Assembly (NCBI GenBank): GCA_964539415.1
Contig: CAZIID010000001.1
Coordinates: 11,979 to 75,978, forward strand
Reading direction: 5' to 3'
Source: an uncultured Candidatus Saccharibacteria bacterium
GTDB taxonomy: Bacteria; Patescibacteriota; Minisyncoccia; Phycocordibacterales; GWA1-40-21
DNA length: 64,000 bases
The notes beneath the pieces were generated by a model that saw only the letters and a program-made list of their open reading frames with translations, did no database searches and was not told the DNA's origin. How positions within the stretch are numbered: position 1 is the first letter of the stretch; every line of letters begins with the position of its first letter. Below are positions 8,291-57,273 of this stretch, piece after piece. The translations under genes and the position numbers were made by a program.

Positions 8291-10237
8291 ATGAATCATC
8301 TTGAAGGTTTAAACGAGCAACAGAAGGCGGCAGTCCTCCAAAAGGACGGCCCAATACTTATAATCGCAGGTGCCGGTGCAGGAAAAACAAAAACAATCAC
8401 ACATAGGATAATGCATTTAATAAAAGAAGGAGTCGCACCACACGAAATACTTGCTATCACTTTTACAAACAAGGCAGCAAAAGAAATGAGAGAGAGGGTA
8501 GAAAAAATAATCTCCGAAGACAACTCCCTTAACCTTCCTATAAAAAATAATGAGAGACCTTTTCTCAGTACCTTTCACTCTCTTGGAGTTCACATCATAA
8601 AAGAGAACAGTCGGCTTGTTGGAGTTTCAAGAAACTTCTCCATTATGGATAGAAGTGATTCAAAAAGAATTATCAAAGATATTCTTAAGTATCTTGATAT
8701 AGATCCGAAACAATATGAGCCTGGAAAAATAATTTCCGCTATTTCTATGGAAAAAAGCAATTTGAACTCACCTGAAAATTTTCTGGAAACTGCCGATAAA
8801 AAAGGGTATACAATGTCTTCTGTTGTAGCACGAGTTTGGCCATTATATGAAAAAAAACTTCTAGAAGAAAAAGCTTTGGACTTTGATGATTTGCTTTTGA
8901 AAGCTTACAAAATATTAAACGAGAATAAAGACGTCTTGGAACACTATCAAAATGTTTGGAAATATATTCATATAGACGAATATCAAGACACAAACAAAGT
9001 TCAATACATGACAAGCAGACTTTTGGCGCAAAAAAGTAAAAATATTTGTGTTGTGGGAGACATAGACCAAAATATTTATAGTTGGAGAGGTGCAAATATA
9101 GAAAACATTTTAAATTTTGAAAAAGACTACCCAAATGCAAAGGTTATTTTGCTTGAAGAAAATTATCGTTCAACACAGACAATTCTAAATGTTGCAAATA
9201 AAGTTATTTCAAAAAACAAGATGCGCCGTGAGAAAAATCTCTTCACAAAAAATGAAGAGGGAGAAAAAATAACTTATTGTAAAAGTCTAAATGAGAACGA
9301 AGAAGCTAGGTTTATAGCCAGAAAAGCGCAGAAGCTTATAGCAGATGGTGTTAACCCACAGGAAATGGCTGTGCTCTATAGAGCAAACTTTCAATCTCGT
9401 GTATTAGAAGAAGCTTTTATTTCAGAGAGCGTTCCTTACCAAGTCCTCGGTACAAAATTCTTTGAAAGAAAAGAAGTCAAAGATGTTTTGTGTTATCTTC
9501 GTGCCTCAATGAATCCAGAAAGTTTAAGTGATCTCAAAAGAATAATAAATATTCCTGCTCGAGGTATAGGCAAGGTTACAATGATGAAAATATTTGAAGG
9601 TAGAAAAGATTCACTCCCTGACACAATAAAAATTAAGGTGAATGATTTCTTTTCTTTATTACAGAGAATAAAAAATGAAACTGCAGAAAAAAAACCTTCT
9701 GAAATAATTAAATACATAATAAGAGAAAGTGGTTTAGAAAGAGAAATGCAAGGTGGGGGAGATGAAGACAAAGAAAGGTTAGAAAACATGCGTGAACTTG
9801 CAACTCTTGCAATAAAATATGATGTCTATCCAAAGCCTGAAGGTATAGAAAAACTTTTAGAAGAAGCTTCACTTGCAACTGACCAAGATTCTTTAGAAAA
9901 AAATGAGAAGGCAGTTAAACTTATGACTGTTCACGCATCAAAAGGACTTGAGTTTGACTATGTTTTTATCACTGGACTTGAAGAAGATCTTTTCCCTCAT
10001 CAAGCAATCGGCAAGGACGAAAAAACACCAGAAGAAATGGAAGAAGAGAGAAGACTGTTTTATGTGGCACTAACAAGAGCAAGAAAAAAGATTTTTCTTA
10101 CCTGCGCAGAAATGAGAACAATTTTCGGTTCACAACAAATGAATCTTCCATCACAATTCTTCGCGGATATTGATTCTGAATTTTTGGAAGAAGAAAACTT
10201 TGAATATCGCGAAAAAATCGTCTACCTAGAGTGGTAG
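8291..10237 (+). CDS. pcrA: UvrD/PcrA/Rep family ATP-dependent DNA helicase
   Basis: Walker A AGAGAGKTKT and the conserved SF1 helicase motifs (TFHSLG, VDEYQDTN, YRSTQ, VHASKGLEFD) are present. Confidence 0.85.
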   Translation: MNHLEGLNEQQKAAVLQKDGPILIIAGAGAGKTKTITHRIMHLIKEGVAPHEILAITFTNKAAKEMRERVEKIISEDNSLNLPIKNNERPFLSTFHSLGVHIIKENSRLVGVSRNFSIMDRSDSKRIIKDILKYLDIDPKQYEPGKIISAISMEKSNLNSPENFLETADKKGYTMSSVVARVWPLYEKKLLEEKALDFDDLLLKAYKILNENKDVLEHYQNVWKYIHIDEYQDTNKVQYMTSRLLAQKSKNICVVGDIDQNIYSWRGANIENILNFEKDYPNAKVILLEENYRSTQTILNVANKVISKNKMRREKNLFTKNEEGEKITYCKSLNENEEARFIARKAQKLIADGVNPQEMAVLYRANFQSRVLEEAFISESVPYQVLGTKFFERKEVKDVLCYLRASMNPESLSDLKRIINIPARGIGKVTMMKIFEGRKDSLPDTIKIKVNDFFSLLQRIKNETAEKKPSEIIKYIIRESGLEREMQGGGDEDKERLENMRELATLAIKYDVYPKPEGIEKLLEEASLATDQDSLEKNEKAVKLMTVHASKGLEFDYVFITGLEEDLFPHQAIGKDEKTPEEMEEERRLFYVALTRARKKIFLTCAEMRTIFGSQQMNLPSQFFADIDSEFLEEENFEYREKIVYLEW

Positions 10238-10245
10238 AATATTAT

Positions 10246-10997
10246 CCACTTGGTAGCGTCGCCACCAAGTGTTATAATCTAAAAATGGGACAAAGAAAAA
10301 CACCTTTCATAAACAATGAACTTTATCATATCTTTAATCGTGGAGTTGATAAAAAAGAAATTTTTATTGAAAAAGAAGATTACTTTCGTTTTATTGAAGA
10401 AATAAAAGAATTTAATATTGATAGACCAATAGGTAGTTTATACGAACTTTCGTTTGAAAGAAAAAAACTTGATAAAAAATCAGCATTTGGTAGCGACGCC
10501 ACCAAATTGGTTGATATTATTGCATATAATATCAATCCTAATCACTTCCATTTAATCTTAAAACAAAAAAAGATGGTGGAATCGGAAAATTTATGCAAAA
10601 AATTGGAACAGGCTATGTAAAATATTTTAATGAAAAAACTCACAGAACTGGTTCACTATTCCAAGGACCATTCAAGTCTGTTCACATTGATAGCAATGAA
10701 TATCTACTTTATTTAAGTGCTTATGTAAATTTAAACGATAAAATACATAAAATAGAAGACTCCTTTGGTTTTTCTAGTCTCCATGAGTATATTCAAGATA
10801 ACAAAGATGGAATGTGTGAAAAATCAATAATATTAGAACAATTTAGCAACAAAAAATATAATTATGAAGAGTTCTTAAATAAATCTCTACAGCAAATGAT
10901 AGAGACAAAAGAAGGTAACAAGAAGATGGAGAAGTATCTTCTGGAAAACTAACCATTGTCTACTAGCTATTTGGTAGCGTCGCTACCAAATAGCTAG
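10246..10997 (+). mobile_element. IS200/IS605-like (RAYT-like) element: Y1 HuH transposase gene flanked by palindromic TTGGTAGCGTCGC(C/T)ACCAA hairpins at 10246-10271 and 10963-10997; a third copy at 10485-10507 lies inside the gene
   Basis: The hairpins are seen directly in the sequence; the right-hand one is a perfect 35-bp palindrome. They flank a transposase whose N-terminus has the YHIFNRG motif. Confidence 0.6.
10285..10952 (+). pseudogene. IS200/IS605-family (REP-associated tyrosine transposase-like) HuH transposase, split by a frameshift in an A7 run near 10561-10572
   Basis: ORF1 has the YHIFNRG motif and the HuH motif NPNHFHLIL. ORF2, in the other frame (10593..10952), continues with KFMQKIGTGYVKYFN...GSLFQGPFKS...YLSAYVNLN (catalytic Tyr region). 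Joining the two frames requires a 1-nt slip within AAACAAAAAAAG. Confidence 0.55.
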
Positions 10998-11017
10998 TAA
11001 ATACATCAAAAACAAAC

Positions 11018-11818
11018 ATGAGTATAAAAGCTAAAAAATCATTAGGGCAAAATTTCCTCAAATCAGGGGCGATTTTAGATAAGATAATAATTGCCGGAAG
11101 CGTGGGTAAAGACGATCTAGTGCTAGAAATAGGCCCTGGAGAGGGTGCGCTCACCGAAAAATTGCTTGAAAAAGCTAAAAAAGTCATTGCTGTTGAAAAA
11201 GACGACAGACTTATTGGTGTTTTAGAGCAAAAATTCGCCAAAAACATAGAAAATGGCTCTTTTGAACTAATTCATGATGATATACTCGAATCAGACATAC
11301 AAAAATACGGCTTAAAATCTGAAGAATACAAGCTTATAGCGAACATTCCATACTATATTACTGGCCAAATTTTCAGAAAATTCCTTTCTGGACCAATTCA
11401 GCCCAATAAAATGGTAGTTTTGGTGCAAAAAGAAGTAGCTCAAAGGGCTGTTGCAAGAGATGAAAAAGAAAGTTTACTCTCTATCAGCATAAAAATCTAC
11501 GGAGAACCAAAAATGATGGGGGTAGTAGCTAGGGGGAACTTCAACCCTGTGCCAAATGTTGATTCAGCAATACTACTTGTGGACAATATTTCAAAGGACT
11601 TCTTTGCCGGTTTCACTGAAGATTCTTTTTTTGAAGTTTTAAAAGCCGGTTTTGCCCACAAAAGGAAACAAATAGCCGGAAATTTAAAAGACTTAATAAA
11701 AGACGGCGAAAAAGTAAGCACTTTGCTCAAAAAATGTGATATAGATGAAAAAAGTAGGGCAGAAGACCTAAATAAAGAAGATTGGGCAAAAATTGTGATA
11801 GAATATGGGGAAATATGA
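11018..11818 (+). CDS. rsmA: 16S rRNA (adenine1518/1519-N6)-dimethyltransferase
   Basis: SLGQNFL motif, SAM-binding LEIGPGEGALT, and overall KsgA architecture. Confidence 0.85.
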   Translation: MSIKAKKSLGQNFLKSGAILDKIIIAGSVGKDDLVLEIGPGEGALTEKLLEKAKKVIAVEKDDRLIGVLEQKFAKNIENGSFELIHDDILESDIQKYGLKSEEYKLIANIPYYITGQIFRKFLSGPIQPNKMVVLVQKEVAQRAVARDEKESLLSISIKIYGEPKMMGVVARGNFNPVPNVDSAILLVDNISKDFFAGFTEDSFFEVLKAGFAHKRKQIAGNLKDLIKDGEKVSTLLKKCDIDEKSRAEDLNKEDWAKIVIEYGEI

Positions 11819-19292: not shown

Positions 19293-19730
19293 ATGCAACA
19301 ATATCAAGTTCCACAATTTATAGAAGTTGAAGACAAGATTTTTGGGCCTTTAACACTCAAACAATTCATCTACATAGTAGGTGCTGCTGGTTTATCTTTC
19401 TTAATTTATAGATTTATACCTTATTCTTTTATATCTTTTCCTATAATATTTGCTGTTATAGCACTCGGACTAGCTCTTGCGTTCTACAAGGTAAATAACA
19501 GGTCTTTTATCTTTATGATGGAATCAGCTTTTTATTACTATATTGGTAGCAAATTATATATTTGGAAGAAAAAAGAAAAAACACCAGAAAGAAAAGCAGT
19601 AATGCAACCAAAAACAGCTAACACAGTATATGTTCCAAGATTAACCGAAAGTAAACTACGAAATCTTACTTGGAGCTTGGATATAAATGAAAAGATTGAT
19701 TCAACAAAAGGAAGACCCTCAGTGAAATAA
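19293..19730 (+). CDS. PrgI-family / VirB3-like small membrane protein
   Basis: N-terminus MQQYQVPQFIEVEDKIFGPLTLKQFIYIVGAAGLSFLIY followed by two TM helices, matching the PrgI-family pattern found beside VirB4 in Gram-positive-type T4SS. Confidence 0.5.
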   Translation: MQQYQVPQFIEVEDKIFGPLTLKQFIYIVGAAGLSFLIYRFIPYSFISFPIIFAVIALGLALAFYKVNNRSFIFMMESAFYYYIGSKLYIWKKKEKTPERKAVMQPKTANTVYVPRLTESKLRNLTWSLDINEKIDSTKGRPSVK

Positions 19731-19796
19731 CAGAACAAATTTCACAAGGTAGAAATAAATTACACTTTAATTATTTTGTAGTGTATAATATTAGAA

Positions 19797-20444
19797 ATGG
19801 CGACATCAAACGCTAAGGCGACACAAGATTTTATACCAGTAAAAGAAGTTAGGGATGGCATCATGGTTCTCAAAGATGGTTCATTGAGAGCTATCGTGAT
19901 GGTATCTTCTCTTAACTTTGCTCTAAAATCTCCAGACGAACAAGATGCTATTATTTATCAATTCCAAAACTTTCTAAACTCTTTGGATTTCTCTGTTCAG
20001 ATATGTATTCAATCAAGAGAACTTGATATAAGACCTTATATAGCACTACTTGAAGAGAGACTAAAAAACGAGCTGAATGAACTACTCAGAATGCAAATAA
20101 AAGAATATGTTCAATTCGTCAGAGCTTTCGTAGAACAGTCAAACATAATGACAAAAACATTCTTCACTGTCATTCCATACTCACCAAGTTTTATAAACCA
20201 AGGTTCATCACCATTTTCAAAATTTTCTGGAAGTTCATCAAACAAAGAAAAACAAACAAAAGAACAAGAACAAAATAGACTTTTTGAAGAGAGCAGAACA
20301 CAGTTAGAGCAGAGGACAAGTGTCGTTCAACAAGGACTTACAAGATGTGGATTAACAAGTATTCAGCTTGGTACAGATGAAATGGTAGAGCTTTTATATA
20401 AAACATTTAATCCAGGAGATATGGGTAAGCCTGCAGTTCAATAA
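19797..20444 (+). CDS. T4SS-associated protein resembling the extreme N-terminal region of VirB4/TraC (DFIPVKEVRDGIMVLKDGSLRAIV...); possibly the split-off 5' part of virB4
   Basis: Its stop lies 4 nt before the VirB4-like ORF start, in a different frame. The combined length (215 + 606 aa) equals that of a typical VirB4. Confidence 0.4.
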   Translation: MATSNAKATQDFIPVKEVRDGIMVLKDGSLRAIVMVSSLNFALKSPDEQDAIIYQFQNFLNSLDFSVQICIQSRELDIRPYIALLEERLKNELNELLRMQIKEYVQFVRAFVEQSNIMTKTFFTVIPYSPSFINQGSSPFSKFSGSSSNKEKQTKEQEQNRLFEESRTQLEQRTSVVQQGLTRCGLTSIQLGTDEMVELLYKTFNPGDMGKPAVQ

Positions 20445-20448
20445 AAAT

Positions 20449-22269
20449 ATGGGTATATTTGATTTTTTAAAAAACAATAAAGAAAAAGAACAGGAATTAA
20501 CATCTTTTTTACCGCATGAAATATATCAGGCTGGTGTACTTGAATTACAAGATGTTATCGCACCTTCTGCACTTAAAATAACACCAAATGAACTAAATCT
20601 CGGGGAAAAGATAGTAAAAACTTTCTTCGTTATTTCATATCCAAGATTTTTAGCACAAAGCTGGTTTGCTCCTATTATAAATCTAGACAAAATTTTTAAT
20701 GTTTCTATTTTCATACACCCGCTAGATACAACACAAATATTAAAACAGTTTCAAAAGAAAGTTGCAGAAGTTCAAAGCCAAATAAATACAAGAGAGAAAA
20801 AGGGTTTAGTTAGAGATCCACAGCTTGATATTGCTTATCAAGATCTAGAATCACTTAGAGATAACCTCCAGCAAGCCCAAGAAAAGCTTTTTGATACAGC
20901 TATTTATATTTCTATATATGGAAATACAGAAGAAGAAGTAAACAAACTTGAAGCAGAAATAAAATCAATCCTTGAATCAAAAATGATTTATGTAAAACCT
21001 GCACTTTTCCAACAAGAACAAGGCTACAAGAGCGTTCTACCTATAGCAACAGATGAATTAAAAGTATATTCCAAGCTCAATTCTTCACCACTTTCAAGTA
21101 TTTTCCCATTCGTTTCTTTTGACCTCACACAAGACAAGGGAATACTCTATGGTATAAACAGACACAATTCAGGTCTTGTTTTATTTGATAGATTTTCTCT
21201 AGAAAACTACAACTCTATTACTTTTGCAAAATCTGGATCAGGTAAATCATATATGTTAAAGCTTGAGATTCTTAGAAGTTTGATGTTTGACATAGACGTT
21301 ATGGTAATAGACCCCGAAAAAGAATATGAGTTCTTGGCAGAAGCCACAGGCGGAAAATCTTTCAATATTTCTTTAAACTCAAATAGCAATATTAACCCTT
21401 TTGACCTTCCAACACCTAGGGAAGATGAGTCTACGTCAGATGTTCTAAGATCAAACATTATAAACCTCGTTGGTTTGTTTAGAATAATGTTGGGCGGATT
21501 AAGTGCAGAAGAAGACTCTATTATTGACCAAGCTGTAGCAGAAACTTATGCCTTAAAGGATATTACCCCCGACTCAGATTTTTCAAACATTGAACCACCA
21601 CTACTTTCAGATTTTGAGCTTGTTCTTTCTGGTATGCAAGGCGCAGAAAGTCTTGTCCAAAAACTTTCTAAATATACTAGAGGAACATGGTCAGGTTTCT
21701 TAAATAGACCAACAAACGTAGATATCAACCACAAATTTATAGTATTTTCTATAAGAGATATGGAAGATGAGCTTAAACCCGTCGCGATGTATCTTGTTAC
21801 CAGATATATTTGGAATGCTGTAAGAAGAAACTTAAAGAAAAGACTGCTTGTTGTGGATGAGGCTTGGTGGATGATGAAATCAGAAGATACAGCTTCTTTC
21901 TTATACAGTATGGCAAAAAGAGGAAGAAAATATTTCTTGGCTCTTGCTACAATAACGCAAGACGTTGATGATTTCTTAAAATCTCCTTATGGACAGCCGA
22001 TTGTAGCAAACTCTTCAATTCAAATTCTTCTCAAACAATCTCCGTCTGTTGTAGACAATCTACAAAAAGTATTTAATCTTACCGATGAAGAAAAATATCT
22101 TCTACTTGAATCTAATGTGGGGGAGGGAATATTCTTCGTAGGACAAAAACACATTGCGATAAAGGTTACAGCTTCATACACTGAAGATCAGATCATAACT
22201 TCAGATCCATCCCAAATACTCGCTATTAAAAAGGCCAAAGAAGAACTCAGAAGCTCAACTGGTTTATAA
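20449..22269 (+). CDS. virB4: VirB4/TrbE/TraC-family type IV secretion ATPase
   Basis: Walker A FAKSGSGKSYMLK, Walker B LLVVDEAWWMM, and the conserved C-terminal ATPase region. Confidence 0.75.
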   Translation: MGIFDFLKNNKEKEQELTSFLPHEIYQAGVLELQDVIAPSALKITPNELNLGEKIVKTFFVISYPRFLAQSWFAPIINLDKIFNVSIFIHPLDTTQILKQFQKKVAEVQSQINTREKKGLVRDPQLDIAYQDLESLRDNLQQAQEKLFDTAIYISIYGNTEEEVNKLEAEIKSILESKMIYVKPALFQQEQGYKSVLPIATDELKVYSKLNSSPLSSIFPFVSFDLTQDKGILYGINRHNSGLVLFDRFSLENYNSITFAKSGSGKSYMLKLEILRSLMFDIDVMVIDPEKEYEFLAEATGGKSFNISLNSNSNINPFDLPTPREDESTSDVLRSNIINLVGLFRIMLGGLSAEEDSIIDQAVAETYALKDITPDSDFSNIEPPLLSDFELVLSGMQGAESLVQKLSKYTRGTWSGFLNRPTNVDINHKFIVFSIRDMEDELKPVAMYLVTRYIWNAVRRNLKKRLLVVDEAWWMMKSEDTASFLYSMAKRGRKYFLALATITQDVDDFLKSPYGQPIVANSSIQILLKQSPSVVDNLQKVFNLTDEEKYLLLESNVGEGIFFVGQKHIAIKVTASYTEDQIITSDPSQILAIKKAKEELRSSTGL

Positions 22270-29909: not shown

Positions 29910-29928
29910 TTATTCTCTGTGTCATTCC

Positions 29929-29995
29929 CGCGAAGGCGGGAATCCAGGTTTAATCTAATATAGTCCTGGATCCCAGATCGAGTCTGGGATGACAG
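29929..29995. mobile_element. Miniature inverted-repeat element with TGTCATTCCC / GGGATGACA-like ends
   Basis: TGTCATTCCCGCGAAGGCGGGAATCCAGG...CCTGGATCCCAGATCGAGTCTGGGATGACAG. Its reverse complement matches 47936-48043, which carries an extra nested 40-bp insert. Confidence 0.65.
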
Positions 29996-45379: not shown

Positions 45380-47782
45380 ATGGCAGATAAAAAAGAGAAC
45401 AAAAAACTAGTACTACTCGATGTTCATGCAATCATCCATCGCGCATATCACGCACTTCCTGATTTTGCGACTAGTAAGGGAGAACCAACCGGTGCGCTTT
45501 ATGGTCTCTCGACAATGTTGCTTAAAATTATCTCTGACATAAAACCAGACTACATTGTCGCGTGTTATGACTTACCAAAACCGACTTATAGGCATGAGGC
45601 TTATAAAGACTACAAAGCTGGTAGAGCAAAAGCAGATGATGAACTCGTATCACAGCTTAAAAAGTCATACGACATTTTTAAAGCTTTTGATATTCCAGTT
45701 TATTCAAAAGAAGGTTTTGAAGCTGATGATATGATAGGAACGATCGTTGAACAAGGTAAGAAAGATAAAAACCTAGATATTGTTATTGCTTCGGGAGATA
45801 TGGACACTCTCCAACTTGTAGAAGGGGATAAAGTGAAAGTATATACACTTAAGAAGGGGATTAAAGATACGATTGTCTATAACGAAAAAGCAGTTGAAGA
45901 AAGATTTGGTTTTTCAGCAAGACTTTTGCCAGACTATAAAGGGCTTCGTGGTGACCCATCTGATAATATTATCGGCATAAAAGGAATTGGTGAAAAGACA
46001 GCGAGTGAACTAATACAGAAATTTGGTTCAATTGAAGAAATATATAAAACACTCAAAAAAGATAGAAAGAAACTTTTGGATGCTGGGGTGAAAGAACGAA
46101 TCGTTGGACTTCTTGAAACAAATGAAGAGGAGGCTCTATTCTCAAAAATGCTTGGAACTATAAGGCGAGATGCACCAATAGATTTTGTATTGCCAGAAAA
46201 AACATGGAAAGAAGGATTGGATTTTGAAAAAATAAATAATGTCTGGGTAGAACTTGAGTTTAGAACGTTAGGTTCAAGGCTTAAAACTGTACTAGGTGAA
46301 AAAGTTTCAATTGATGTTGATAACTCAGATGATTTGGTGGCGACGCTACCAAATAAAGAGAGCTTGGGAGCCTCGCTTCCAAGTGAGAAAATTGCTGAAC
46401 TTTCTGTAATACTCTGGTTAATTAACTCTACAATCACAACTCCTAAACTTGAAGATATATATAATTTTACAAAGACAAAAGATGGAGTTTCTGCGGAGAA
46501 GATTTTGTTGGATGAGATAAAAAATAAGGGGCTTTCTGAAGTTTGGGAAAAAATTGAAAAGCCGTTACTTCCAATAATAGTAGAAATGAAAGTGAATGGA
46601 ATAAAAGTAGATTCAAATGCACTCGTAGCACTTTCAAAAGAGTATCATGAAAAACTGTCTGAGCTTGAAAGAAAAATCTGGGAATTGTCTGGTGTAGTTT
46701 TTAATATAAATTCTCCAAAACAGCTTGGTGAAGTTTTGTTTACAAAGCTTGGACTAAAGCCAAAGAATCAAAAGAAGACAAGTAGTGGAGCAATGTCTAC
46801 AAAAGAATCTGAACTAGAAAAAATGCGTGATTTACATCCTGTGATACCTTTTATTTTTGAACATAGAGAATTACAAAAACTTCTTTCTACTTATATAGAT
46901 GTAATACCAAGTCTACTAGACGAAAAACAGAGACTTCATGCAACTTTCTTGCAAGCAGGAACAACGACAGGAAGAATGGCATCAAGTGAGCCAAATTTGC
47001 AAAACATTCCGATTAGAAGTGATCTAGGTAAAAATATAAGGAAGGCATTTATTGCAGAGAAAGGTTTTAAACTTGTTGCTTTTGATTATTCACAAGTTGA
47101 ACTGAGAATTGCGGCTTTTCTTTCTGGTGATAAAAAACTTATAGATATTTTTAAAAAAGGGGAAGATGTTCATACTGCTGTAGCCTCTGAAGTTTTTAAT
47201 GTTCCACTTGATGCTGTAGATAAAGAAATGAGAAGAAGAGCAAAGATAATAAACTTTGGAATAATGTATGGAATGGGAGTAAACGCATTGAAACAAAATC
47301 TAGGTACTGACAGAAAAGAAGCACAGATATTTTATGATGAATATTTTAAAAAGTTTGAAGGATTAGCAAAATATCTTGATAACACAAAAGCAAATGCACA
47401 AAGAAAAGGGTATACGGAAACATTTTTTGGTAGAAGAAGATATTTTGAAGGTTTACAATCTAAGTTGCCTTTTATAAAGGCGATGGCAGAGAGGATGGCT
47501 ATCAATGCGCCAATTCAAGGTACAGAAGCCGACTTAGTGAAACTTGCGATGGTTGAGGTGGATAAATATTTGGAAGGGCAAAAATTGAAAAATAAGGTGA
47601 AGATACTTTTGCAGGTTCATGATGAACTAGTTTATGAAATTTCAGAAGATGTTATCGGAACAGTTGTAAATAATATTAAAAAAATAATGGAAGGTCTGAT
47701 TCCGCCAGAAAAAGTATCAGGAATTGTATGTAAAACAACCATTGAAGTGGGGGATAACTGGCTAGAAATGGAGGAGATTTAG
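45380..47782 (+). CDS. polA: DNA polymerase I (5'-3' exonuclease + polymerase domains; no obvious 3'-5' exonuclease)
   Basis: N-terminal FEN-like 5' nuclease domain. Polymerase motifs A (DYSQVELRI), B (RRRAKIINFGIMYG) and C (QVHDEL). At 800 aa it is too short to include a proofreading domain. Confidence 0.85.
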   Translation: MADKKENKKLVLLDVHAIIHRAYHALPDFATSKGEPTGALYGLSTMLLKIISDIKPDYIVACYDLPKPTYRHEAYKDYKAGRAKADDELVSQLKKSYDIFKAFDIPVYSKEGFEADDMIGTIVEQGKKDKNLDIVIASGDMDTLQLVEGDKVKVYTLKKGIKDTIVYNEKAVEERFGFSARLLPDYKGLRGDPSDNIIGIKGIGEKTASELIQKFGSIEEIYKTLKKDRKKLLDAGVKERIVGLLETNEEEALFSKMLGTIRRDAPIDFVLPEKTWKEGLDFEKINNVWVELEFRTLGSRLKTVLGEKVSIDVDNSDDLVATLPNKESLGASLPSEKIAELSVILWLINSTITTPKLEDIYNFTKTKDGVSAEKILLDEIKNKGLSEVWEKIEKPLLPIIVEMKVNGIKVDSNALVALSKEYHEKLSELERKIWELSGVVFNINSPKQLGEVLFTKLGLKPKNQKKTSSGAMSTKESELEKMRDLHPVIPFIFEHRELQKLLSTYIDVIPSLLDEKQRLHATFLQAGTTTGRMASSEPNLQNIPIRSDLGKNIRKAFIAEKGFKLVAFDYSQVELRIAAFLSGDKKLIDIFKKGEDVHTAVASEVFNVPLDAVDKEMRRRAKIINFGIMYGMGVNALKQNLGTDRKEAQIFYDEYFKKFEGLAKYLDNTKANAQRKGYTETFFGRRRYFEGLQSKLPFIKAMAERMAINAPIQGTEADLVKLAMVEVDKYLEGQKLKNKVKILLQVHDELVYEISEDVIGTVVNNIKKIMEGLIPPEKVSGIVCKTTIEVGDNWLEMEEI
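46332..46354. mobile_element. REP-like hairpin ATTTGGTGGCGACGCTACCAAAT embedded in-frame in the polA inter-domain linker (translated DLVATLPNK)
   Basis: Same palindrome family as the hairpins flanking the RAYT-like transposase at 10246, 10485 and 10963. Confidence 0.6.
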
Positions 47783-47812: not shown

Positions 47813-48043
47813 AGCCTGCCTGCGCAGGCAGGTATGAGAAAGAACTGGATTGCCACGTTCGGAATACCTCACTCGCAAAGACGGAGCAGGGCTTCTTCTG
47901 TCATTGCGAGCGAAGCGTGGCAATCCATCTTCTCTGTCATCCCAGACTTGTTTACTCCGTGAAATTTCATAGTATTTCAACTGGGGATCTGGGATCCAGG
48001 ATTTTATCAACAAACTTTGGATTCCCGCTTGCGCGGGAATGAC
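47813..48043. mobile_element. Cluster of nested miniature inverted-repeat elements (CCTGCCTGCGCAGGCAGG palindrome; GGATTGCCACG...CGTGGCAATCC; TGTCATCCCAGAC...[45-bp insert]...ATCTGGGATCCAGG...GGATTCCCGCTTGCGCGGGAATGACA)
   Basis: Segment 47936-48043 is the reverse complement of 29929-29995 plus an inserted unit that is also found at 41228-41270. Confidence 0.65.
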
Positions 48044-52671: not shown

Positions 52672-54432
52672 ATGCATCTTGAGAAAAATAAATTAAGAGA
52701 GTTTATTTTGGATTCTGGTCTTATAACAAGAACAGAGTATGACAAGGCTGAATCTGACGCCAAAAAAGATAAGAACGGTGAGACTGCCGAAAAGATTTTA
52801 GTTAGTTCTGGAAAAATAACTGAAGATGACTTGAGAAGAGCCAATGCTTACGTCTTCGGTATTCCTTTTGTTGATTTAAAAAGTCAAAAGATTGATTTTT
52901 CTGTTCTTTCTTTAATTCCTGAGCCTGTTGCAAGAAAAAATAACATTATCGCTTTCAAGAAAAATGAAGATTCTTTGGAAGTCGCAATGCTTGATACCCA
53001 AGACCTCGCTTCTATTGAATTTATAAAAAAGAAAGTTGGTTTAAAAATATTACCGAGACTCACAGATCTTGAATCTATAAAAAGTGCGATACTTCAATAT
53101 CAAAAAAGTTTGAAAGCAGAGTTCGGGGATATGATTCAAAAAGACGCCCTTGTTATCAAAGATTTTGGTAACAATGTTATTACTGACGAATCTTCTGAGG
53201 GAGCACTGAAGAAAATGGCAGAGGATCTTCCGGTTGTTCGTGTTGTAGAAACACTTTTGAAACATGCTATTTTACAGAATGCGTCAGATATTCATATAGA
53301 ATGTTTAGAAAATAGTGTGCTTATTAGATATAGAATAGACGGCATACTTCACGACGCTATGATTTTGCCCAAAAATTCTGCGACAGGTATTATTGCAAGA
53401 ATTAAAGTTTTATCAAACCTAAAGCTTGATGAAAAGAGATTACCTCAAGACGGAAGATTTAAGATAGATTTGAATGCTGAAAAAGTTTCTTTTAGAGTCT
53501 CTATTATTCCTACAAACTACGGTGAGAAGGCGGTTATGAGACTTTTGAGAGAAAATGTTGCTGGCTACACACTTGAAAGTATTGGTTTTCACGGTGAATC
53601 ACTTGAGGCGGTTTATGAAGCAACAAGACAAGCAAATGGAATGATCCTAACCACAGGTCCGACTGGTTCAGGTAAGACAACAACTTTGTATTCCATTCTT
53701 GAAATATTAAATACTCCATATGTGAATATATCAACCATTGAAGATCCTATTGAATATCAAGTTCAGAGAATTAATCAAACGCAAGTAAAGCCAGAGATTG
53801 GATTTTCTTTTTCAAATGGACTCAGATCACTTGTAAGGCAAGATCCAGATATTATTATGGTGGGGGAAATTAGAGATAATGAGACGGCTGCTATTTCTGT
53901 AAACGCTGCACTTACTGGCCACCTTGTTTTATCAACTTTGCACACGAATAGCGCTGCTGGAGCAATACCTAGACTTATGGATATGAAGGTGGAACCATTT
54001 TTATTGATTTCAACACTTAGAATTGTTTTGGCACAAAGACTTGTTAGGAAACTTTGTAAAATAAAAGAGAAATATTTTTTAACAAAAGCAGAAATCGCCA
54101 CTATTGCTAAGAATGTTGATTTAAATAGAGTTTTGGAATTCCTTAAAAAAGAAAAAATAATAGGACCAAAAGATGACTGGGAGAAAATTCCTTTTTACAG
54201 ACCAAAAATTTCCGAAGAATCTAAAGACGGTTTTAAGGGTAGGGTAGGAATTCACGAGGTATTAAAAGTATCTTCTGCTATTAAAGATATTATTATTAAA
54301 GGTGGAACTACAGAAACGATAGAAGAGCAAGCAAAAAAAGAGGGTATGATGACAATGATTGAAGACGGTATTTTTAAAGCAACTCAAGGTTTAACGACAC
54401 TTGAGGAGGTATTGAGAGTTGTTAGTGAGTAA
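52672..54432 (+). CDS. pilB: Type IV pilus assembly ATPase PilB (GspE family)
   Basis: Walker A GPTGSGKTTT and the GspE N-terminal domains. First gene of the pilus locus. Confidence 0.8.
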   Translation: MHLEKNKLREFILDSGLITRTEYDKAESDAKKDKNGETAEKILVSSGKITEDDLRRANAYVFGIPFVDLKSQKIDFSVLSLIPEPVARKNNIIAFKKNEDSLEVAMLDTQDLASIEFIKKKVGLKILPRLTDLESIKSAILQYQKSLKAEFGDMIQKDALVIKDFGNNVITDESSEGALKKMAEDLPVVRVVETLLKHAILQNASDIHIECLENSVLIRYRIDGILHDAMILPKNSATGIIARIKVLSNLKLDEKRLPQDGRFKIDLNAEKVSFRVSIIPTNYGEKAVMRLLRENVAGYTLESIGFHGESLEAVYEATRQANGMILTTGPTGSGKTTTLYSILEILNTPYVNISTIEDPIEYQVQRINQTQVKPEIGFSFSNGLRSLVRQDPDIIMVGEIRDNETAAISVNAALTGHLVLSTLHTNSAAGAIPRLMDMKVEPFLLISTLRIVLAQRLVRKLCKIKEKYFLTKAEIATIAKNVDLNRVLEFLKKEKIIGPKDDWEKIPFYRPKISEESKDGFKGRVGIHEVLKVSSAIKDIIIKGGTTETIEEQAKKEGMMTMIEDGIFKATQGLTTLEEVLRVVSE

Positions 54433-54572
54433 TTGTGAATTATTAATCTAATAGGATTTATCCTGTTAGAAATTGCGATTAGTAGTATAAAAAATATTTG
54501 TTTTATAAGGTTGTTGTATAATTTAAAATGTTGTGGGTTACGAAATCAAAATCGCACTCTACTTCTAATAGG

Positions 54573-55787
54573 ATGAAATATAAATTTAACGCAATAAAAA
54601 AGAACGGTGAGAGATATTCTGGGTTTAGAGACTCTGCTGATAAATTTTCTTTATATGCAGATCTGAAGATAGAAGGGGATACTCTCATTAGTGCTACCGC
54701 AGTGGATAAAAAAGATAATGTTTTTTTTCAGAATATTACTGTTTATTTAGAAAGTATAGGCGAACAAAAAAAAATCTTTTTTGCAAAAAATCTTGGAGCC
54801 ATGCTTGAATCGGGACTTGCTTTAGCTCGAGCTCTTACTGTTATGGAAAAGCAGATAGAAAATAAAAATTTTAAAGCACTTGTTTCTTCTATGAATGATG
54901 ATATTAAGAAAGGTGAGACACTCAGTGAATCTTCAAGAAAACATCCTAGTGTATTCTCGAGTCTTTTTGTTTCTATGGTAAAAGCTGGAGAAGAAAGCGG
55001 AAATCTAGCCGGATCACTAAAGATAGTTGGTGAACAAATGGATTCTTCTTATAAACTAAAGAAAAAGATTCAGGGGGCTCTCATATATCCAGCTGTTATA
55101 TTAATTTTAATGATTGCAATTGGTGTTTTGATGATGGTGTATGTTGTTCCAAGCCTTAGTGCTACTTTTTCAGATTTAAGTGTTGAACTCCCAGCAATGA
55201 CAAAGGCTATAGTTTTTTTAAGTGATTTTTTAAAAAATAATATCCTTGTAAGTCTTGCGGTAATTATCGTCGTAGCTTTGTCTGTTTATTTTTTCTCTTT
55301 AAGCAAGACAGGCAAAAAGTTTTTTGATTTTGTTTCTATAAAAACTCCTGTTATTTCACCGATTGTAAAAGAAGTAAATTCTGCCAGAACAGCGAGAACT
55401 CTTTCATCTCTTTTGTCTTCAGGTGTTCCTTTTGCTGAAGCAATACTTATAACAAGTGAAGTTGTGCAGAATCATTATTTTAGAGAAGTTTTAGATCATG
55501 CAAGACTTGGTGTAGAGAAAGGCGAACCTATGTCAAAGTTTTTTATTGATAATTCAAATCTGTATCCAGTTTTTGTTGGCGAGATGATGGCCGTAGGAGA
55601 GGAGACTGGAAATATTTCTGGAATGCTTATGGAGACTGCTGAATTTTATGAAAATTCTGTAGATCAGAAAACAAAAGATATGTCTACGATTATAGAACCT
55701 GTGCTTATGATTATTATCGGTATAGCTGTAGGTATATTTGCTTTCTCTATGATAACTCCAATATATTCTCTAATGGATAAAATATGA
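54573..55787 (+). CDS. pilC: Type IV pilus inner-membrane platform protein PilC (GspF family)
   Basis: Duplicated GspF domain with 3 TM segments. Start set at MKYKFNAIKKNGE, where AGGA lies 5 nt upstream of the ATG. Confidence 0.75.
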   Translation: MKYKFNAIKKNGERYSGFRDSADKFSLYADLKIEGDTLISATAVDKKDNVFFQNITVYLESIGEQKKIFFAKNLGAMLESGLALARALTVMEKQIENKNFKALVSSMNDDIKKGETLSESSRKHPSVFSSLFVSMVKAGEESGNLAGSLKIVGEQMDSSYKLKKKIQGALIYPAVILILMIAIGVLMMVYVVPSLSATFSDLSVELPAMTKAIVFLSDFLKNNILVSLAVIIVVALSVYFFSLSKTGKKFFDFVSIKTPVISPIVKEVNSARTARTLSSLLSSGVPFAEAILITSEVVQNHYFREVLDHARLGVEKGEPMSKFFIDNSNLYPVFVGEMMAVGEETGNISGMLMETAEFYENSVDQKTKDMSTIIEPVLMIIIGIAVGIFAFSMITPIYSLMDKI

Positions 55788-56263
55788 TCCACACTTTAAA
55801 GACAAAATTTATTTCTGGATTTTCTCTCGGAGAGGTTCTCATCACTTTAGCGATAATATCTATCGTTTCTTCTATTGCTGTAACCGCTTTTAAAGGAATG
55901 AATGAAAGACAGGTTTTAGACAAAAGCATACTTTCAGTAATGAGTATCATAAATGAGACCAGATCATCTTCACTTTCTTCTAAAGACTCTAGTGATCATG
56001 GTGTCTATATAGAAGAAGGAAAAATAACTTCTTTTATTGGTTCAAATTATAGTCCGACAGATTCTAAAAATGTAATTTATGATTTGAATAGTTTGGTAAG
56101 AGTATCATCGTCTGTCCCAAAGACAATTGTTTTTAAAAGGACAACTGGAATTTTATTTCAAAATAGTCCGATTGTCGTAAATGTATCTTTGAAAAAAGAT
56201 GTAAATGCGAGTTCGTCTATTATTGTTTTTCCGACAGGAATAATTCAAAAAAATGCGCTTTAG
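55784..56263 (+). CDS. Prepilin-type N-terminal cleavage/methylation domain protein (pilin/pseudopilin)
   Basis: SGFSLGEVLITLAIISIVSSIAV class III signal sequence. Confidence 0.7.
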   Translation: MIHTLKTKFISGFSLGEVLITLAIISIVSSIAVTAFKGMNERQVLDKSILSVMSIINETRSSSLSSKDSSDHGVYIEEGKITSFIGSNYSPTDSKNVIYDLNSLVRVSSSVPKTIVFKRTTGILFQNSPIVVNVSLKKDVNASSSIIVFPTGIIQKNAL

Positions 56264-56738
56264 AAATTACAAAAAAGGCATAGGTCTTGTGGAAGTAATA
56301 GTAGCTGTTTTTATATTGACTATTGTTTTGAGTTCACTTTTTACAATCAACAACCTTTATTTAAAATCTTCTCTTGGTAATATCAAATCAACTAAAGGGG
56401 CATATTTGGCAAGCGAAGCAGTAGAAGCTGTAAAGACGATTAGAGATTCTGGTTGGAGTAATATAGTAAATATTGCCAATAATACAGATTACTATCTTTA
56501 CTTTAACAACGAGACTTCAGTTTGGGTTGCGACTTCTTCTATTCAAGCTATAGATGGTTTTTCAAGAAAATTTAAAATAAATAATGTATATAGAGATGCA
56601 AGCGGAGATATTTCAAATGCTGGAACGGTTGATCCAAATACAAAAAAACTAGAAACTTTTGTTTCTTGGCACGCTTCATCTGGCCAGATTGTAGAAAAAA
56701 GTCTGATTACTTACATTTCTAATATTTTTGAAGATTAA
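56253..56738 (+). CDS. Prepilin-type pseudopilin
   Basis: KGIGLVEVIVAVFILTIVLSSLF N-terminal motif. Confidence 0.65.
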   Translation: MRFRNYKKGIGLVEVIVAVFILTIVLSSLFTINNLYLKSSLGNIKSTKGAYLASEAVEAVKTIRDSGWSNIVNIANNTDYYLYFNNETSVWVATSSIQAIDGFSRKFKINNVYRDASGDISNAGTVDPNTKKLETFVSWHASSGQIVEKSLITYISNIFED

Positions 56739-57268: not shown

Positions 57269-57273
57269 AAAAA

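What the first reader, a model, noticed from the sequence alone, without database searches (positions are those of the whole stretch)
10246..10997. Frameshifted IS200/RAYT-like HuH transposase bracketed by GGTAGCGTCGCTACC hairpins
The transposase begins 7 nt after an extended -10 (TGTTATAAT). It carries the YHIFNRG and HFHLIL (HuH) motifs and, in a second frame, the catalytic-Tyr region. Restoring the reading frame needs a 1-nt slip in an A7 run (10566-10572). Near-perfect palindromes with a TTGGTAGCGTCGCYACCAA core sit at both ends, and the right one is a 35-bp perfect palindrome. These are the hairpin substrates expected for Y1 transposases or REP-associated tyrosine transposases. A third copy lies inside the transposase coding sequence. 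The A-run break may be decay, a sequencing slip, or programmed frameshifting, which is not characteristic of this transposase family.
Basis: partly seen in the sequence, partly recalled or inferred. Interest (0 to 1): 0.6.

Follow-up and report, generated by a model that had tools for sequence, protein, structure and literature searches.

The report
RAYT-like gene with built-in hairpins
This is a domesticated hairpin-cutting (HUH/tyrosine) transposase-like gene of an ultrasmall (Patescibacteria) bacterium. It carries copies of its own palindromic target in its promoter, inside its coding sequence and after its stop codon. In most sampled populations a genuine one-base loss in a run of A's breaks it. 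It is a known kind of system in a new and unusually regular form.

Summary
A 222-aa Y1 HUH gene (10285-10952, between uvrD and rsmA) is split by a 1-nt deficit in an A run (10565-10571). Copies of TTGGTAGCGWCGCYACCAA lie upstream, inside the CDS and downstream. A fourth copy lies in frame inside polA.

The restored protein passes Pfam Y1_Tnp. Its model is closest to E. coli TnpA-REP (RAYT) bound to a REP hairpin.

The frameshift is neither programmed nor an artefact. All 79 homologous genome loci and the syntenic orthologue are unbroken. At least 8 assemblies of this strain carry A7, and 2 otherwise identical ones carry A8 (intact).

The more interesting result is family-wide. In 66 of 81 Patescibacteria loci the gene has its own lineage-specific palindrome (frame ACTTGG...CCAAGT) at up to four fixed positions:
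- inside the promoter of an apparently leaderless mRNA;
- in two in-frame loop sites;
- just after the stop codon.

Copies are near-identical within a locus and different between loci and between paralogues. Dispersed copies are sparse, and several sit in frame in other genes.

Verdict: a REPtron-like RAYT relative, a new variant of a known kind, of moderate interest.

The parts
8291..10237 (+). Upstream neighbour, a UvrD/PcrA-type helicase. It is not part of the element and defines the syntenic slot.
   Evidence: Pfam UvrD-helicase 1.7e-85. It is also the upstream neighbour in the orthologous loci L001, L005 and L058.
10247..10271 (.). Upstream (U) palindrome CACTTGGTAGCG-T-CGCCACCAAGTG, with its core at 10250-10268.
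   Evidence: It folds as ssDNA at -8.7 kcal/mol, z = -5.2. A lineage-specific palindrome lies in the same region upstream of the start codon (most often about 26 nt) in 61 of the 66 loci with matching hairpins.
10250..10278 (+). Promoter-like site that overlaps the U palindrome: -35 TTGGTA (10250-10255), a 17-nt spacer, TG (10270-10271) and -10 TATAAT (10273-10278). The ATG follows after 6 intervening bases, so the mRNA is probably leaderless.
   Evidence: 10 of 12 matches, TG present. The same layout, CCAAGTGnTAnnnT-N6-ATG, recurs in relatives: 42 of 61 U sites have TAnnnT at +10 to +18, against 13% in the control. Function is inferred, not shown.
10285..10620 (+). ORF1 (111 aa) in the A7 allele. 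It encodes the N-terminal half with YHIFNRG (10324-10344) and the HUH motif HFHLIL (10543-10560), then runs out of frame to a stop.
   Evidence: H87 and H89 are invariant in 102 homologues.
10485..10507 (.). Internal (I1) palindrome ATTTGGTAGCG-A-CGCCACCAAAT, with its core at 10487-10505. It is read in frame as F68-G-S-D-A-T-K74.
   Evidence: Homologues carry LGxxx[ST]K at this site, encoded by their own palindrome. In the model it maps to the lowest-confidence internal stretch (residues 61-70, pLDDT 58).
10565..10571 (+). A7 run, the site of the 1-nt deficit. The zero-frame codons CAA AAA AAG make the heptamer A AAA AAG (10566-10572).
   Evidence: The A8 allele is found in L090 and L091, which are otherwise identical over 6.8 kb. 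The orthologue L001 reads AAA CAA AAA ATC GAT in frame.
10572..10952 (+). C-terminal half in the second frame (D97 to N222, then the stop). It includes the RxGxLFQ motif and the putative catalytic Tyr147 (10722-10724) in SAYVNLN. Gene callers call a 119-aa ORF at 10593-10952.
   Evidence: Y147 is invariant.
10961..10999 (.). Downstream (D) palindrome, a 39-nt perfect palindrome with its core at 10971-10989. It starts 9 nt after the stop codon.
   Evidence: 19-nt arms, 100% complementary. It folds as ssDNA at -17.9 kcal/mol, z = -9.6. A D-site palindrome is present in 58 sites across relatives.
11018..11818 (+). Downstream neighbour, rsmA/ksgA (16S rRNA dimethyladenosine transferase). It is not part of the element.
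   Evidence: Pfam RrnaAD 3.7e-51. It is syntenic in L001, L005 and L058.
46332..46383 (.). Dispersed copies inside the polA CDS (45380-47782). There is a perfect copy at 46334-46352 and a divergent hairpin at 46364-46382, read in frame as DLVATLPNKESLGASLPS in a hypervariable linker.
   Evidence: The peptides are present in a polA at 90% identity and absent from polA at 83-84% identity.

Best explanation
The locus is a REPtron-like unit. It is a single, vertically inherited gene for a Y1 HUH endonuclease of the TnpA-REP/RAYT type, together with its cognate palindromic hairpins.

Shown:
- The restored 222-aa protein has the HUH motif (H87-F-H89), an invariant Tyr147 and a Y1 fold closest to E. 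coli TnpA-REP.
- The same palindrome sits in the promoter (U), in frame in a surface loop before the HUH motif (I1), and right after the stop codon (D).
- A further copy has recently appeared in frame in a linker of polA.
- Across Patescibacteria the same sites, plus a second in-frame site after the Tyr helix (I2), carry a palindrome. It is near-identical within a locus but differs between loci and between paralogues of one genome, and the differences preserve pairing.

Inferred:
- By analogy with TnpA-REP and IS608 TnpA, the enzyme binds the hairpin extruded on single-stranded DNA. It recognises the conserved ACTTGG/CCAAGT foot and the lineage-specific inner stem, cuts next to the hairpin with Tyr147 and a metal held by the HUH histidines, and rejoins the strands.
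- Repeated cut-and-rejoin between copies, or template-directed replacement, would occasionally seed new copies such as the polA one. It would also keep all copies matched to the protein, which would explain the concerted evolution.
- Because the U copy spans the -35 to the TG of an extended -10 promoter, binding there probably also sets the gene's own expression.

The frameshift:
- In the window the gene is inactivated by a contraction of an A8 tract to A7.
- This is a real allele that coexists with the intact A8 allele in an otherwise identical strain background. It is a simple slipped-strand mutation in a dispensable gene, not a programmed recoding signal.
- The resulting A AAA AAG heptamer, and polymerase stuttering, could incidentally allow a trace of full-length protein.
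For: Protein identity:
- Pfam Y1_Tnp scores 27.7 bits against a cutoff of 23 on the restored sequence.
- 2261 homologues were found, nearly all full length at 208-250 aa.
- Invariant residues include H87, H89, Y147 and N151.
- The AF2 model has pLDDT 87.4 and pTM 0.85.
- The top Foldseek hit is 4er8_A, RAYT bound to a REP hairpin, at E = 9e-7. IS608 and ISDra2 TnpA follow.

Hairpins at this locus:
- There are three copies at the gene plus the polA copy, with none expected by chance.
- They form stable ssDNA hairpins.

Concerted evolution:
- The orthologue L001 (76% identity, same uvrD-gene-rsmA synteny) has palindromes at the same three positions with a compensatorily changed core, TTGGAGGC-CTC-GCCTCCAA.
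- 66 of 81 loci have at least two matching hairpins at the conserved sites (U 67, D 58, I1 47 and I2 33 sites).
- The 11-nt variable cores differ by 0.5 nt on average within a locus and by 5.9 nt between loci. There are 54 distinct cores among the 66 loci.
- On an alignment of one hairpin per locus for 58 of those loci (mostly U sites), 93% of cells are paired. There are 130 double-sided changes against 36 in shuffles.
- Paralogues in one genome or locus each have a private palindrome.

Promoter:
- Searches support the promoter overlap.

Dispersal:
- 29 cognate copies lie elsewhere in 1.25 Mb of relatives, and several are in frame in long ORFs.
- The polA copy is absent from polA at 83-84% identity.

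Frameshift:
- All 79 genome loci give one unbroken HSP.
- A7 is found in at least 8 assemblies and A8 in 2, which are otherwise 100% identical.
- 62 other A or T runs of 7 or more in CDSs of the window are in frame.

Precedent:
- REPs flanking tnpA-REP genes, and inserted in frame within them and within other genes, are described in PMC6006769 and PMC3733652.
Against: - No biochemical evidence exists for this family. Binding, cleavage and copying of the hairpins are inferred by analogy.
- The protein fails the NCBIfam RAYT equivalog model (21 bits against a cutoff of 80). It also lacks the Pro of the class-2 Y---NP signature.
- No hit to solved structures was found by sequence.
- The dispersed hairpin population is small, about one site per 40-80 kb. 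Dissemination activity, if any, is therefore low.
- The GTAG guide typical of REPs is present in this window's palindrome but not across the family.
- Loop orientation relative to U is random. This fits recognition of a symmetric duplex about as well as recognition of a strand-specific hairpin.
- The hairpin sets were found with a palindrome detector and kept only if a partner matched, so the pairing and within-locus identity figures are partly ascertained.
- JGI and Logan assemblies may share read sets, so 'at least 8 independent assemblies' may overcount.
Confidence: 0.72

Rival explanations
1. The hairpins are mainly regulatory cis-elements. They would act as an operator in the promoter and as RNA or DNA structures within and after the CDS that control transcription, translation or mRNA stability. 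They would be kept alike by ordinary gene conversion or by selection, and would not be substrates that the HUH enzyme cuts and copies.
For: - The U palindrome exactly fills the -35-to-TG interval of the best promoter-like site. This layout recurs in relatives.
- Loop orientation is random, as expected for a symmetric duplex site.
- Very few dispersed copies exist.
Against: - Cognate copies do occur far from the gene and inside unrelated genes such as polA, where a role in regulating this gene makes no sense.
- The protein's nearest structural relative is an enzyme solved in complex with such a hairpin.
- Private palindromes for each paralogue are what protein-hairpin specificity predicts.
- The two views are not exclusive, because autoregulation at U is part of the best explanation.
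Confidence: 0.12
2. Programmed -1 ribosomal frameshifting, or programmed transcriptional slippage, at A AAA AAG makes the full-length enzyme from the A7 sequence. ORF1 alone would be a second, regulatory product, as in IS1 and IS3 transposases.
For: - The zero-frame codons CAA AAA AAG form the classic X XXY YYZ heptamer in the correct register.
- A -1 slip gives exactly the family-consensus protein.
- The A7 allele predominates among assemblies.
Against: - No homologue shares the break. All 79 genome loci and the syntenic orthologue are in one frame, and the orthologue has no heptamer (AAA CAA AAA ATC).
- An intact A8 allele exists in the same strain.
- The 78 nt downstream are less structured than shuffled sequence (z = +1.9).
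- No upstream Shine-Dalgarno-like stimulator is evident in the sequence.
Confidence: 0.05
3. It is an active or recently active IS200/IS605-type insertion sequence. The flanking hairpins would be its left and right ends, and it would now be decaying.
For: - It has the Y1 HUH fold, and IS608 and ISDra2 TnpA are among the structural hits.
- Hairpins sit at both ends.
- Some genomes carry more than one family member.
Against: - The Tyr motif is Y---N rather than the Y---Q of IS200 transposases.
- There is no tnpB. Both ends carry the same palindrome rather than distinct left and right ends.
- The chromosomal slot is the same in relatives down to 47-76% protein identity.
- Paralogues within a genome are divergent and each has a different hairpin. 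They are not near-identical copies.
- Only one copy lies in about 83 kb.
Confidence: 0.05
4. The frameshift is a sequencing or assembly error at a homopolymer, and the gene is really intact.
For: - The break is a 1-nt length difference in a homopolymer.
- Two assemblies of the same strain read A8.
Against: - A7 is called in at least 8 assemblies from two pipelines (JGI and Logan), and both pipelines also produce A8 in other samples.
- 62 other A or T runs of 7-9 nt in CDSs of the window cause no frameshift.
Confidence: 0.03

Closest known systems
E. coli TnpA-REP (RAYT, YafM) and its REPtron; solved with a REP hairpin (PDB 4er8)
   Same: - It has the Y1 HUH fold, and 4er8 is the best structural match.
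- It is a single chromosomal gene flanked by its own palindromic repeats.
- The repeats are specific to the gene.
- It is vertically inherited.
   Different: - It fails the RAYT equivalog model.
- Its motifs are FQ instead of WE or WQ, and YVNLN[DN] instead of Y---NP.
- It has a roughly 60-aa C-terminal extension.
- The repeats are short perfect palindromes with a conserved ACTTGG/CCAAGT double foot, rather than a 5' GTAG plus an imperfect stem.
- It has tens of dispersed copies at most, not hundreds.
- Copies sit at fixed places in the promoter and inside the CDS.
TnpA-Y1 subclass 2.4 of Quentin et al. 2018 (RAYT group 4 of Bertels et al.): 'double-foot' REPs, REPs inserted in frame within tnpA-REP
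   Same: - Both have an NH[IFV]H-type HUH motif.
- In both, the palindromes carry the foot at both ends.
- In both, REP copies are inserted in frame inside the transposase gene and inside unrelated genes.
- Both have a low repeat copy number.
   Different: [quoted passage not shown] Here the two sites are fixed, one before the HUH motif and one after the Tyr helix, across the family.
- The motifs differ: FQ and YVNLN here, WQ and YIxNNP in 2.4.
- The host range differs: Patescibacteria here, Cyanobacteria and Bacteroidetes for 2.4.
- That paper does not report a promoter-embedded copy.
TnpA-Y1 subclass 2.1 / TIRYT (Quentin 2018; Di Nocera 2013)
   Same: Among the motif sets tabulated in PMC6006769, this subclass is the nearest to this protein. 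It has NH[YF]H, FQ and Y[IV]HLN, a conserved SS motif in the tail, and a length of about 220-240 aa.
   Different: - Subclass 2.1 is reported to have no REP-like hairpins. Some members have terminal inverted repeats, and the class has a C-terminal HTH-like domain.
- This family has cognate hairpins, and no HTH was detected by Pfam.
- The comparison rests on motifs only. No phylogeny was made.
Rickettsia palindromic elements (RPE) and intragenic REPs
   Same: Short palindromic repeats are inserted in frame in protein-coding genes. They favour permissive loops and often sit in replication or repair genes. Here the example is the polA linker.
   Different: - RPEs are 100-150 bp and no associated HUH gene is known (my own knowledge).
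- Here the unit is about 23 bp and has a cognate enzyme gene.
IS200/IS608 TnpA
   Same: It has the same fold and presumably the same chemistry, namely ssDNA hairpin recognition with HUH plus Tyr.
   Different: - It is not an insertion sequence.
- It lacks the Y---Q motif.
- It has no distinct left and right ends, no tnpB and no multicopy identical units.

Membership tests
Y1 HUH endonucleases (TnpA-Y1 superfamily, Pfam PF01797) | Profile match above Pfam's gathering score | tested here: met
   The restored 222-aa protein scores 27.7 bits against a cutoff of 23, E = 3e-6. The fragments alone do not pass.
Y1 HUH endonucleases (TnpA-Y1 superfamily, Pfam PF01797) | HUH motif and a single catalytic Tyr on a following helix | tested here: met
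   H87-F-H89 and Y147 are invariant in 102 homologues. Y147 lies in helix 138-149 of the model.
Y1 HUH endonucleases (TnpA-Y1 superfamily, Pfam PF01797) | Fold of solved Y1 transposases | tested here: met
   The AF2 model has pLDDT 87.4. Foldseek gives 4er8_A at E = 9e-7, and 2vjv, 2a6m and 2xm3 at E about 3e-4.
Y1 HUH endonucleases (TnpA-Y1 superfamily, Pfam PF01797) | Metal-dependent cleavage and joining of single-stranded DNA next to a hairpin | not testable with these tools
   This needs biochemistry.
RAYT / TnpA-REP with REPtron | Match to the curated RAYT model (NCBIfam NF047646, equivalog) | tested here: not met
   21.4 bits against a cutoff of 80.
RAYT / TnpA-REP with REPtron | Class-2 Tyr signature Y---NP | tested here: inconclusive
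   Y147-V-N-L-N151 is conserved, but the next residue is D or N rather than P. The signature comes from PMC6006769.
RAYT / TnpA-REP with REPtron | Gene flanked on both sides by copies of one palindromic repeat family | tested here: met
   for the window. The same holds in 66 of 81 loci.
RAYT / TnpA-REP with REPtron | The same repeats dispersed at high copy number in extragenic space | tested here: not met
   Only the polA site (one perfect and one divergent copy) lies in about 83 kb around the gene. In relatives there are 29 copies in 1.25 Mb, and several are intragenic. The whole genome is not available.
RAYT / TnpA-REP with REPtron | 5' GT[AG]G guide at the foot of the hairpin | tested here: inconclusive
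   The window has GTAG/CTAC inside the stem (GGTAGCG...CGCTACC). Family-wide, the conserved foot is ACTTGG/CCAAGT, not GTAG.
RAYT / TnpA-REP with REPtron | Low copy number, vertical inheritance, and each paralogue with its own repeat | tested here: met
   Synteny is kept at 47-76% identity. Paralogues have private palindromes.
TnpA-Y1 subclass 2.4 (REPs inserted in tnpA-REP) | [quoted passage not shown] | tested here: not met
   An in-frame REP is present. However, I1 lies before the HUH motif (residues 68-74) and I2 lies after the Tyr. The motifs are FQ and YVNLN.
IS200/IS605 insertion sequence | Y---Q motif, distinct subterminal left and right hairpins, multiple near-identical copies, often tnpB | tested here: not met
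   The motif is Y---N. The same palindrome sits at both ends. The neighbours are uvrD and rsmA. Synteny is conserved. There is one copy in the window.
Programmed -1 ribosomal frameshift site | Slippery heptamer X XXY YYZ in register | tested here: met
   A AAA AAG lies at 10566-10572 with zero-frame codons CAA AAA AAG. A -1 slip gives the consensus protein.
Programmed -1 ribosomal frameshift site | Downstream stimulatory structure, and conservation of the two-frame arrangement in relatives | tested here: not met
   No structure is present (z = +1.9). All relatives are in one frame. An intact A8 allele exists in the same strain.

The most novel reading that the evidence does not exclude
The window samples an undescribed, Patescibacteria-wide subclass of RAYT-like Y1 HUH genes. 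In this subclass the cognate hairpin is a built-in, positionally fixed part of the gene, not an accidental insertion. It forms the core of the promoter of a leaderless mRNA, two in-frame loop-coding segments, and the 3' end. The protein and its three or four hairpins co-evolve as a unit, with dozens of distinct natural protein-hairpin pairs. The intragenic copies would be functional, for example for autoregulation, cis-preferential action or self-templated renewal of the repeat. In this strain the system is toggled off and on by slippage of an A7/A8 tract.
Probability: 0.35. Interest if true: 0.65.

Novelty: new variant of a known kind. Interest (0 to 1): 0.5.

Why it matters
- RAYT/REP systems are the best-studied case of a domesticated transposase living with its own short repeats. 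How the enzyme recognises, copies and co-evolves with its hairpin is still largely unsolved.
- This family offers dozens of natural enzyme-hairpin pairs. They share a common foot and differ in a 4-5 bp inner stem, in tiny genomes with very few copies to track. That is a compact data set for working out a recognition code and for testing whether hairpins are overwritten in place.
- It shows that ultrasmall, streamlined Patescibacteria genomes keep such a system.
- It shows that hairpin-coded peptides are written into essential proteins such as DNA polymerase I.
- For annotation, the 'LGxxxSK' and 'LExxLPS' peptide segments in CPR proteins can be recognised as repeat-derived.
- The frameshift itself is ordinary.

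Tried and rejected
- Metagenome scan for the palindrome: the pattern TTGGTRGCGNCGCYACCAA in metagenome contigs gave 109 contigs, each with a single site. By my own estimate for a collection of that size, this is about what chance would give. None resembles the three-copy locus, so the source genome is not in that collection and no genome-wide census was possible.
- Partial census instead: I extended the census by about 19 kb using neighbouring contigs. No further copies were found.
- Sequence search of the PDB with a 102-sequence profile: nothing relevant was found. Only the fold comparison linked the family to solved Y1 enzymes.
- Literature searches for RAYT, REPtron or TnpA-REP together with Patescibacteria, CPR or Parcubacteria: no paper describes this family. 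This is absence in the searchable library only.
- Programmed frameshifting: considered because the heptamer is in register, and rejected.
- Assembly-wide homopolymer error: rejected.
- D hairpin as an intrinsic terminator: no T tract follows it.
- Conserved uvrD-rsmA synteny for the whole family: it holds only for the nearest relatives.
- One search failed because of a one-base coordinate error of mine.
Full report
WHAT IS THERE

The window has 34% G+C and is densely coding. Between a uvrD/pcrA-type helicase gene (8291-10237) and rsmA (11018-11818) lies a 780-bp slot holding two overlapping ORFs on the + strand. These are 10285-10620 (111 aa from the ATG) and 10593-10952 (119 aa).

Adding one A to the run at 10565-10571, or stepping back one base after AAG, joins them into a 222-aa protein. 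Coordinates 10566-10572 are the heptamer A AAA AAG.

The pattern TTGGTAGCGWCGCYACCAA occurs at 10250-10268, 10487-10505 and 10971-10989. It also occurs at 46334-46352, with a divergent neighbour at 46364-46382. No match is expected in shuffled sequence. The right-hand copy is the centre of a 39-nt perfect palindrome, 10961-10999, not 35 bp. As single-stranded DNA the copies fold well: U at -8.7 kcal/mol and D at -17.9 kcal/mol, with z-scores of -5.2 and -9.6.

WHAT THE PROTEIN IS

The fragments alone do not pass Pfam, but the restored protein hits Y1_Tnp at 27.7 bits against a cutoff of 23. The NCBIfam RAYT equivalog is matched only weakly, at 21 bits against a cutoff of 80.

A database search found 2261 homologues, almost all 208-250 aa and covering 95-100% of the restored query. 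Sources that name them call them 'transposase' or 'REP element-mobilizing transposase RayT', and those whose source names an organism come from Patescibacteria.

Invariant or near-invariant residues include:
- Y14-H15, R19-G20;
- N84, N86, H87, H89 (the HUH motif);
- R121, G123, L125, F126, Q127;
- Y147, N149, N151 (SAYVNLN);
- S164-S165.

A profile search of PDB sequences found nothing. An AlphaFold model (pLDDT 87.4, pTM 0.85) matches the E. coli REP-associated tyrosine transposase bound to a REP hairpin (4er8_A, E = 9e-7). IS608 and ISDra2 TnpA follow.

Against the motif table of Quentin et al. 2018 (PMC6006769):
- The Tyr motif Y---N places the family with class 2 (TnpA-REP-like), not with IS200 (Y---Q).
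- NH[FY]H, FQ, YVNLN and the SS motif resemble subclass 2.1 most.
- The Pro of Y---NP is missing.

THE FRAMESHIFT

The closest homologue (76% identity) sits in the same uvrD-gene-rsmA slot of a related genome and is intact. At the break it reads AAA CAA AAA ATC GAT, whereas the window reads AAA CAA AAA AAG ATG. All 79 loci retrieved from species-representative genomes give one unbroken alignment. The two-frame arrangement is therefore private to this lineage.

Exact-protein look-ups found the window's own sequence in many assemblies:
- The A7 form occurs in JGI 3300044990, 3300044952, 3300044987, 3300044991 and 3300059473, and in Logan SRR12261226, SRR35365870 and SRR35365835.
- An A8 form that encodes the intact 222-aa protein occurs in Logan SRR35365923 and JGI 3300045131.
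- The A8 contigs are identical to the window over 6.8 kb except for that one base.

The window holds 62 other A or T runs of 7-9 nt within CDSs, none of which breaks a frame. The 78 nt after the heptamer are less structured than shuffled controls.

I conclude that this is a real A8-to-A7 slippage allele, polymorphic in one strain population. It is neither a sequencing error nor programmed recoding. The heptamer is in the right register for a -1 slip, so a trace of full-length product from the A7 allele is possible. I regard that as incidental. I cannot tell whether the tract switches recurrently (phase variation) or whether two clones coexist. Some JGI and Logan assemblies may derive from the same reads.

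THE HAIRPINS ARE A FAMILY-WIDE, POSITIONALLY FIXED FEATURE

The orthologue L001 has palindromes at the same three places, but with a different core whose changes preserve pairing. L001 has TTGGAGGC-CTC-GCCTCCAA, and the window has TTGGTAGCG-T-CGCYACCAA.

A hairpin scan of all loci shows the same in nearly every genome. A palindrome with the common frame ACTTGG...CCAAGT and a lineage-specific inner stem and loop lies at up to four positions:
- U, most often centred about 26 nt before the start codon (range 18-61 nt);
- I1, at about nt 175-230, encoding L-G-x-x-x-[ST]-K;
- I2, at about nt 440-520 in a subset, encoding a second such peptide;
- D, within about 10-100 nt after the stop codon.

This explains why the protein alignment shows two co-varying 'LGSEASK'-type segments.

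The numbers are as follows:
- 66 of 81 loci have at least two matching hairpins at these sites (U 67, D 58, I1 47 and I2 33 sites).
- The 11-nt variable cores differ by 0.5 nt on average within a locus (74% identical) and by 5.9 nt between loci.
- There are 54 distinct cores among the 66 loci.
- On an alignment of one hairpin per locus for 58 of those loci (mostly U sites), 93% of cells are paired. There are 130 double-sided changes against 36 in shuffles (0 of 500).

These figures are partly ascertained, because hairpins were found by a palindrome detector and kept only if they had a partner. The expectation of such matches by chance is nevertheless essentially nil.

Paralogues in the same genome or even the same locus each have a private palindrome: L007/L017, L026/L032, L054/L056, L036/L081, and the second copies in L014, L030 and L046. 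In about ten loci the sites hold back-to-back inverted doublets, which are REPIN-like. Some of these lie inside the CDS and are still in frame. Loop orientation relative to U is random.

In the model, the I1 peptide (residues 68-74) falls in the lowest-confidence internal stretch (residues 61-70, pLDDT 58), between a helix and the strand that leads to the HUH motif. I2 would fall in a loop after the Tyr helix.

THE U COPY IS PART OF THE PROMOTER

The best promoter-like site in the region is TTGGTA (10250-10255), a 17-nt spacer, then TATAAT (10273-10278) with TG at 10270-10271. The left arm of the palindrome supplies the -35, the rest of it is the spacer, and the extended right arm (…CCAAGTG) supplies the TG. 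The ATG follows after 6 intervening bases, which suggests a leaderless mRNA.

Among the 61 U sites in relatives (one per locus):
- 42 have TAnnnT starting at +10 to +18 from the palindrome centre, and 26 of these start exactly at +14. The control frequency is 13%.
- 27 have the TG.
- In 20, six bases separate the hexamer from the ATG.

Promoter function and autoregulation are inferences.

DISPERSED COPIES

Within the window the only other site is in polA (45380-47782). There a perfect copy and a divergent hairpin are read in frame as DLVATLPNKESLGASLPS. This is a hypervariable linker. A polA at 90% identity has the peptides, and those at 83-84% identity lack them. Other Paceibacteria polA proteins carry LEARLPS- or LGGDASKL-type peptides at the same place. 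These resemble translations of their own palindromes, but I did not check the DNA.

Extending the search about 19 kb beyond the window found no more copies. In relatives, 29 cognate copies lie outside the gene in 1.25 Mb, against well under one expected by my own estimate. Several are in frame in ORFs of 291-687 aa. A scan of the metagenome collection for the window's palindrome returned only chance-level single hits. The true genome-wide count remains unknown, but it is clearly tens at most, not hundreds.

COMPARISON WITH WHAT IS KNOWN

REP-associated tyrosine transposases are single-copy genes flanked by cognate REPs (REPtrons). Each paralogue has its own REP family (PMC6006769; PMC5581495).

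[quoted passage not shown] They also report that REPs occur in unrelated genes. Di Nocera et al. note that intragenic REPs often lie in replication and repair genes. Low repeat numbers are typical of RAYT groups 1 and 4.

The present family fits this kind. It differs in five ways:
- a different motif set;
- failure of the curated RAYT model;
- fixed intragenic sites, one before the HUH motif and one after the Tyr helix, rather than variable sites between them;
- a promoter-embedded copy;
- a different conserved foot, ACTTGG rather than GTAG (the window's own palindrome happens to contain GTAG/CTAC).

I found no paper describing such units in Patescibacteria.

VERDICT

The frameshift is an ordinary, real and polymorphic homopolymer mutation.

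The locus is a new variant of a known kind. The regular four-site architecture and the concerted evolution across a whole radiation deserve moderate interest. Interest would be higher if the intragenic and promoter copies prove functional.

Noticed in passing
window 29924-29943, 48021-48040; also 25148, 47900, 51676 and 29984, 47936: This is a second, unrelated set of G+C-rich intergenic hairpin modules: ATTCCCGC-loop-GCGGGAAT, GTCATTGCGAG and GTCATCCCAG/CTGGGATGAC. The same sequences recur in a few other Patescibacteria loci (for example 9 copies in 5 of 80 loci, one of them just downstream of the HUH gene in L008). Unlike the HUH palindromes, they are not lineage-specific.
   Followed up: partly
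L023, L027, L039, L053, L057, L059, L064, L068, L073, L080 (at the U, I1 or D sites of the HUH gene): These sites hold back-to-back inverted doublets of the hairpin (34-52-nt perfect palindromes, REPIN-like) instead of single hairpins. Some doublets lie inside the CDS, and the gene still gives a single in-frame alignment.
   Followed up: partly
polA homologues P0134, P0135, P0141, P0151, P0162, P0164, P0165 (linker aligned to window polA residues about 310-335): Other Paceibacteria DNA polymerase I proteins carry LEARLPS- or LGGDASKL-type peptides in the same hypervariable linker. These look like translations of their own palindromes, which suggests repeated independent insertions at a permissive site.
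   Followed up: partly
L014 732-1382 and 6417-7016; L030 10001-10630 and 16250-16867: Two HUH paralogues lie 5-6 kb apart in one locus, each with a different private palindrome. In L014, a palindrome of the second paralogue's type also lies about 170 nt upstream of the first paralogue.
   Followed up: partly
window 19293-22269 and 52672-59076: Gene calls on the matching contigs show a PrgI / TraC-like / VirB4-TraG-like cluster (a type IV secretion or conjugation-like system) and a type IV pilus cluster (T2SSE/MshEN, T2SSF, N_methyl pilins).
   Followed up: no
window 10485-10507, minus strand: On the minus strand the I1 hairpin is followed by GCTGATTTTT and scores as a terminator-like site. It could stop antisense transcription into the gene. 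I did not check this in relatives.
   Followed up: no
L205 1-721 (contig Ga0485166_0000038, about 8-9 kb left of the window start): A phage-integrase-family tyrosine recombinase gene lies upstream of the window on the same contig. No link to the HUH locus is evident.
   Followed up: no
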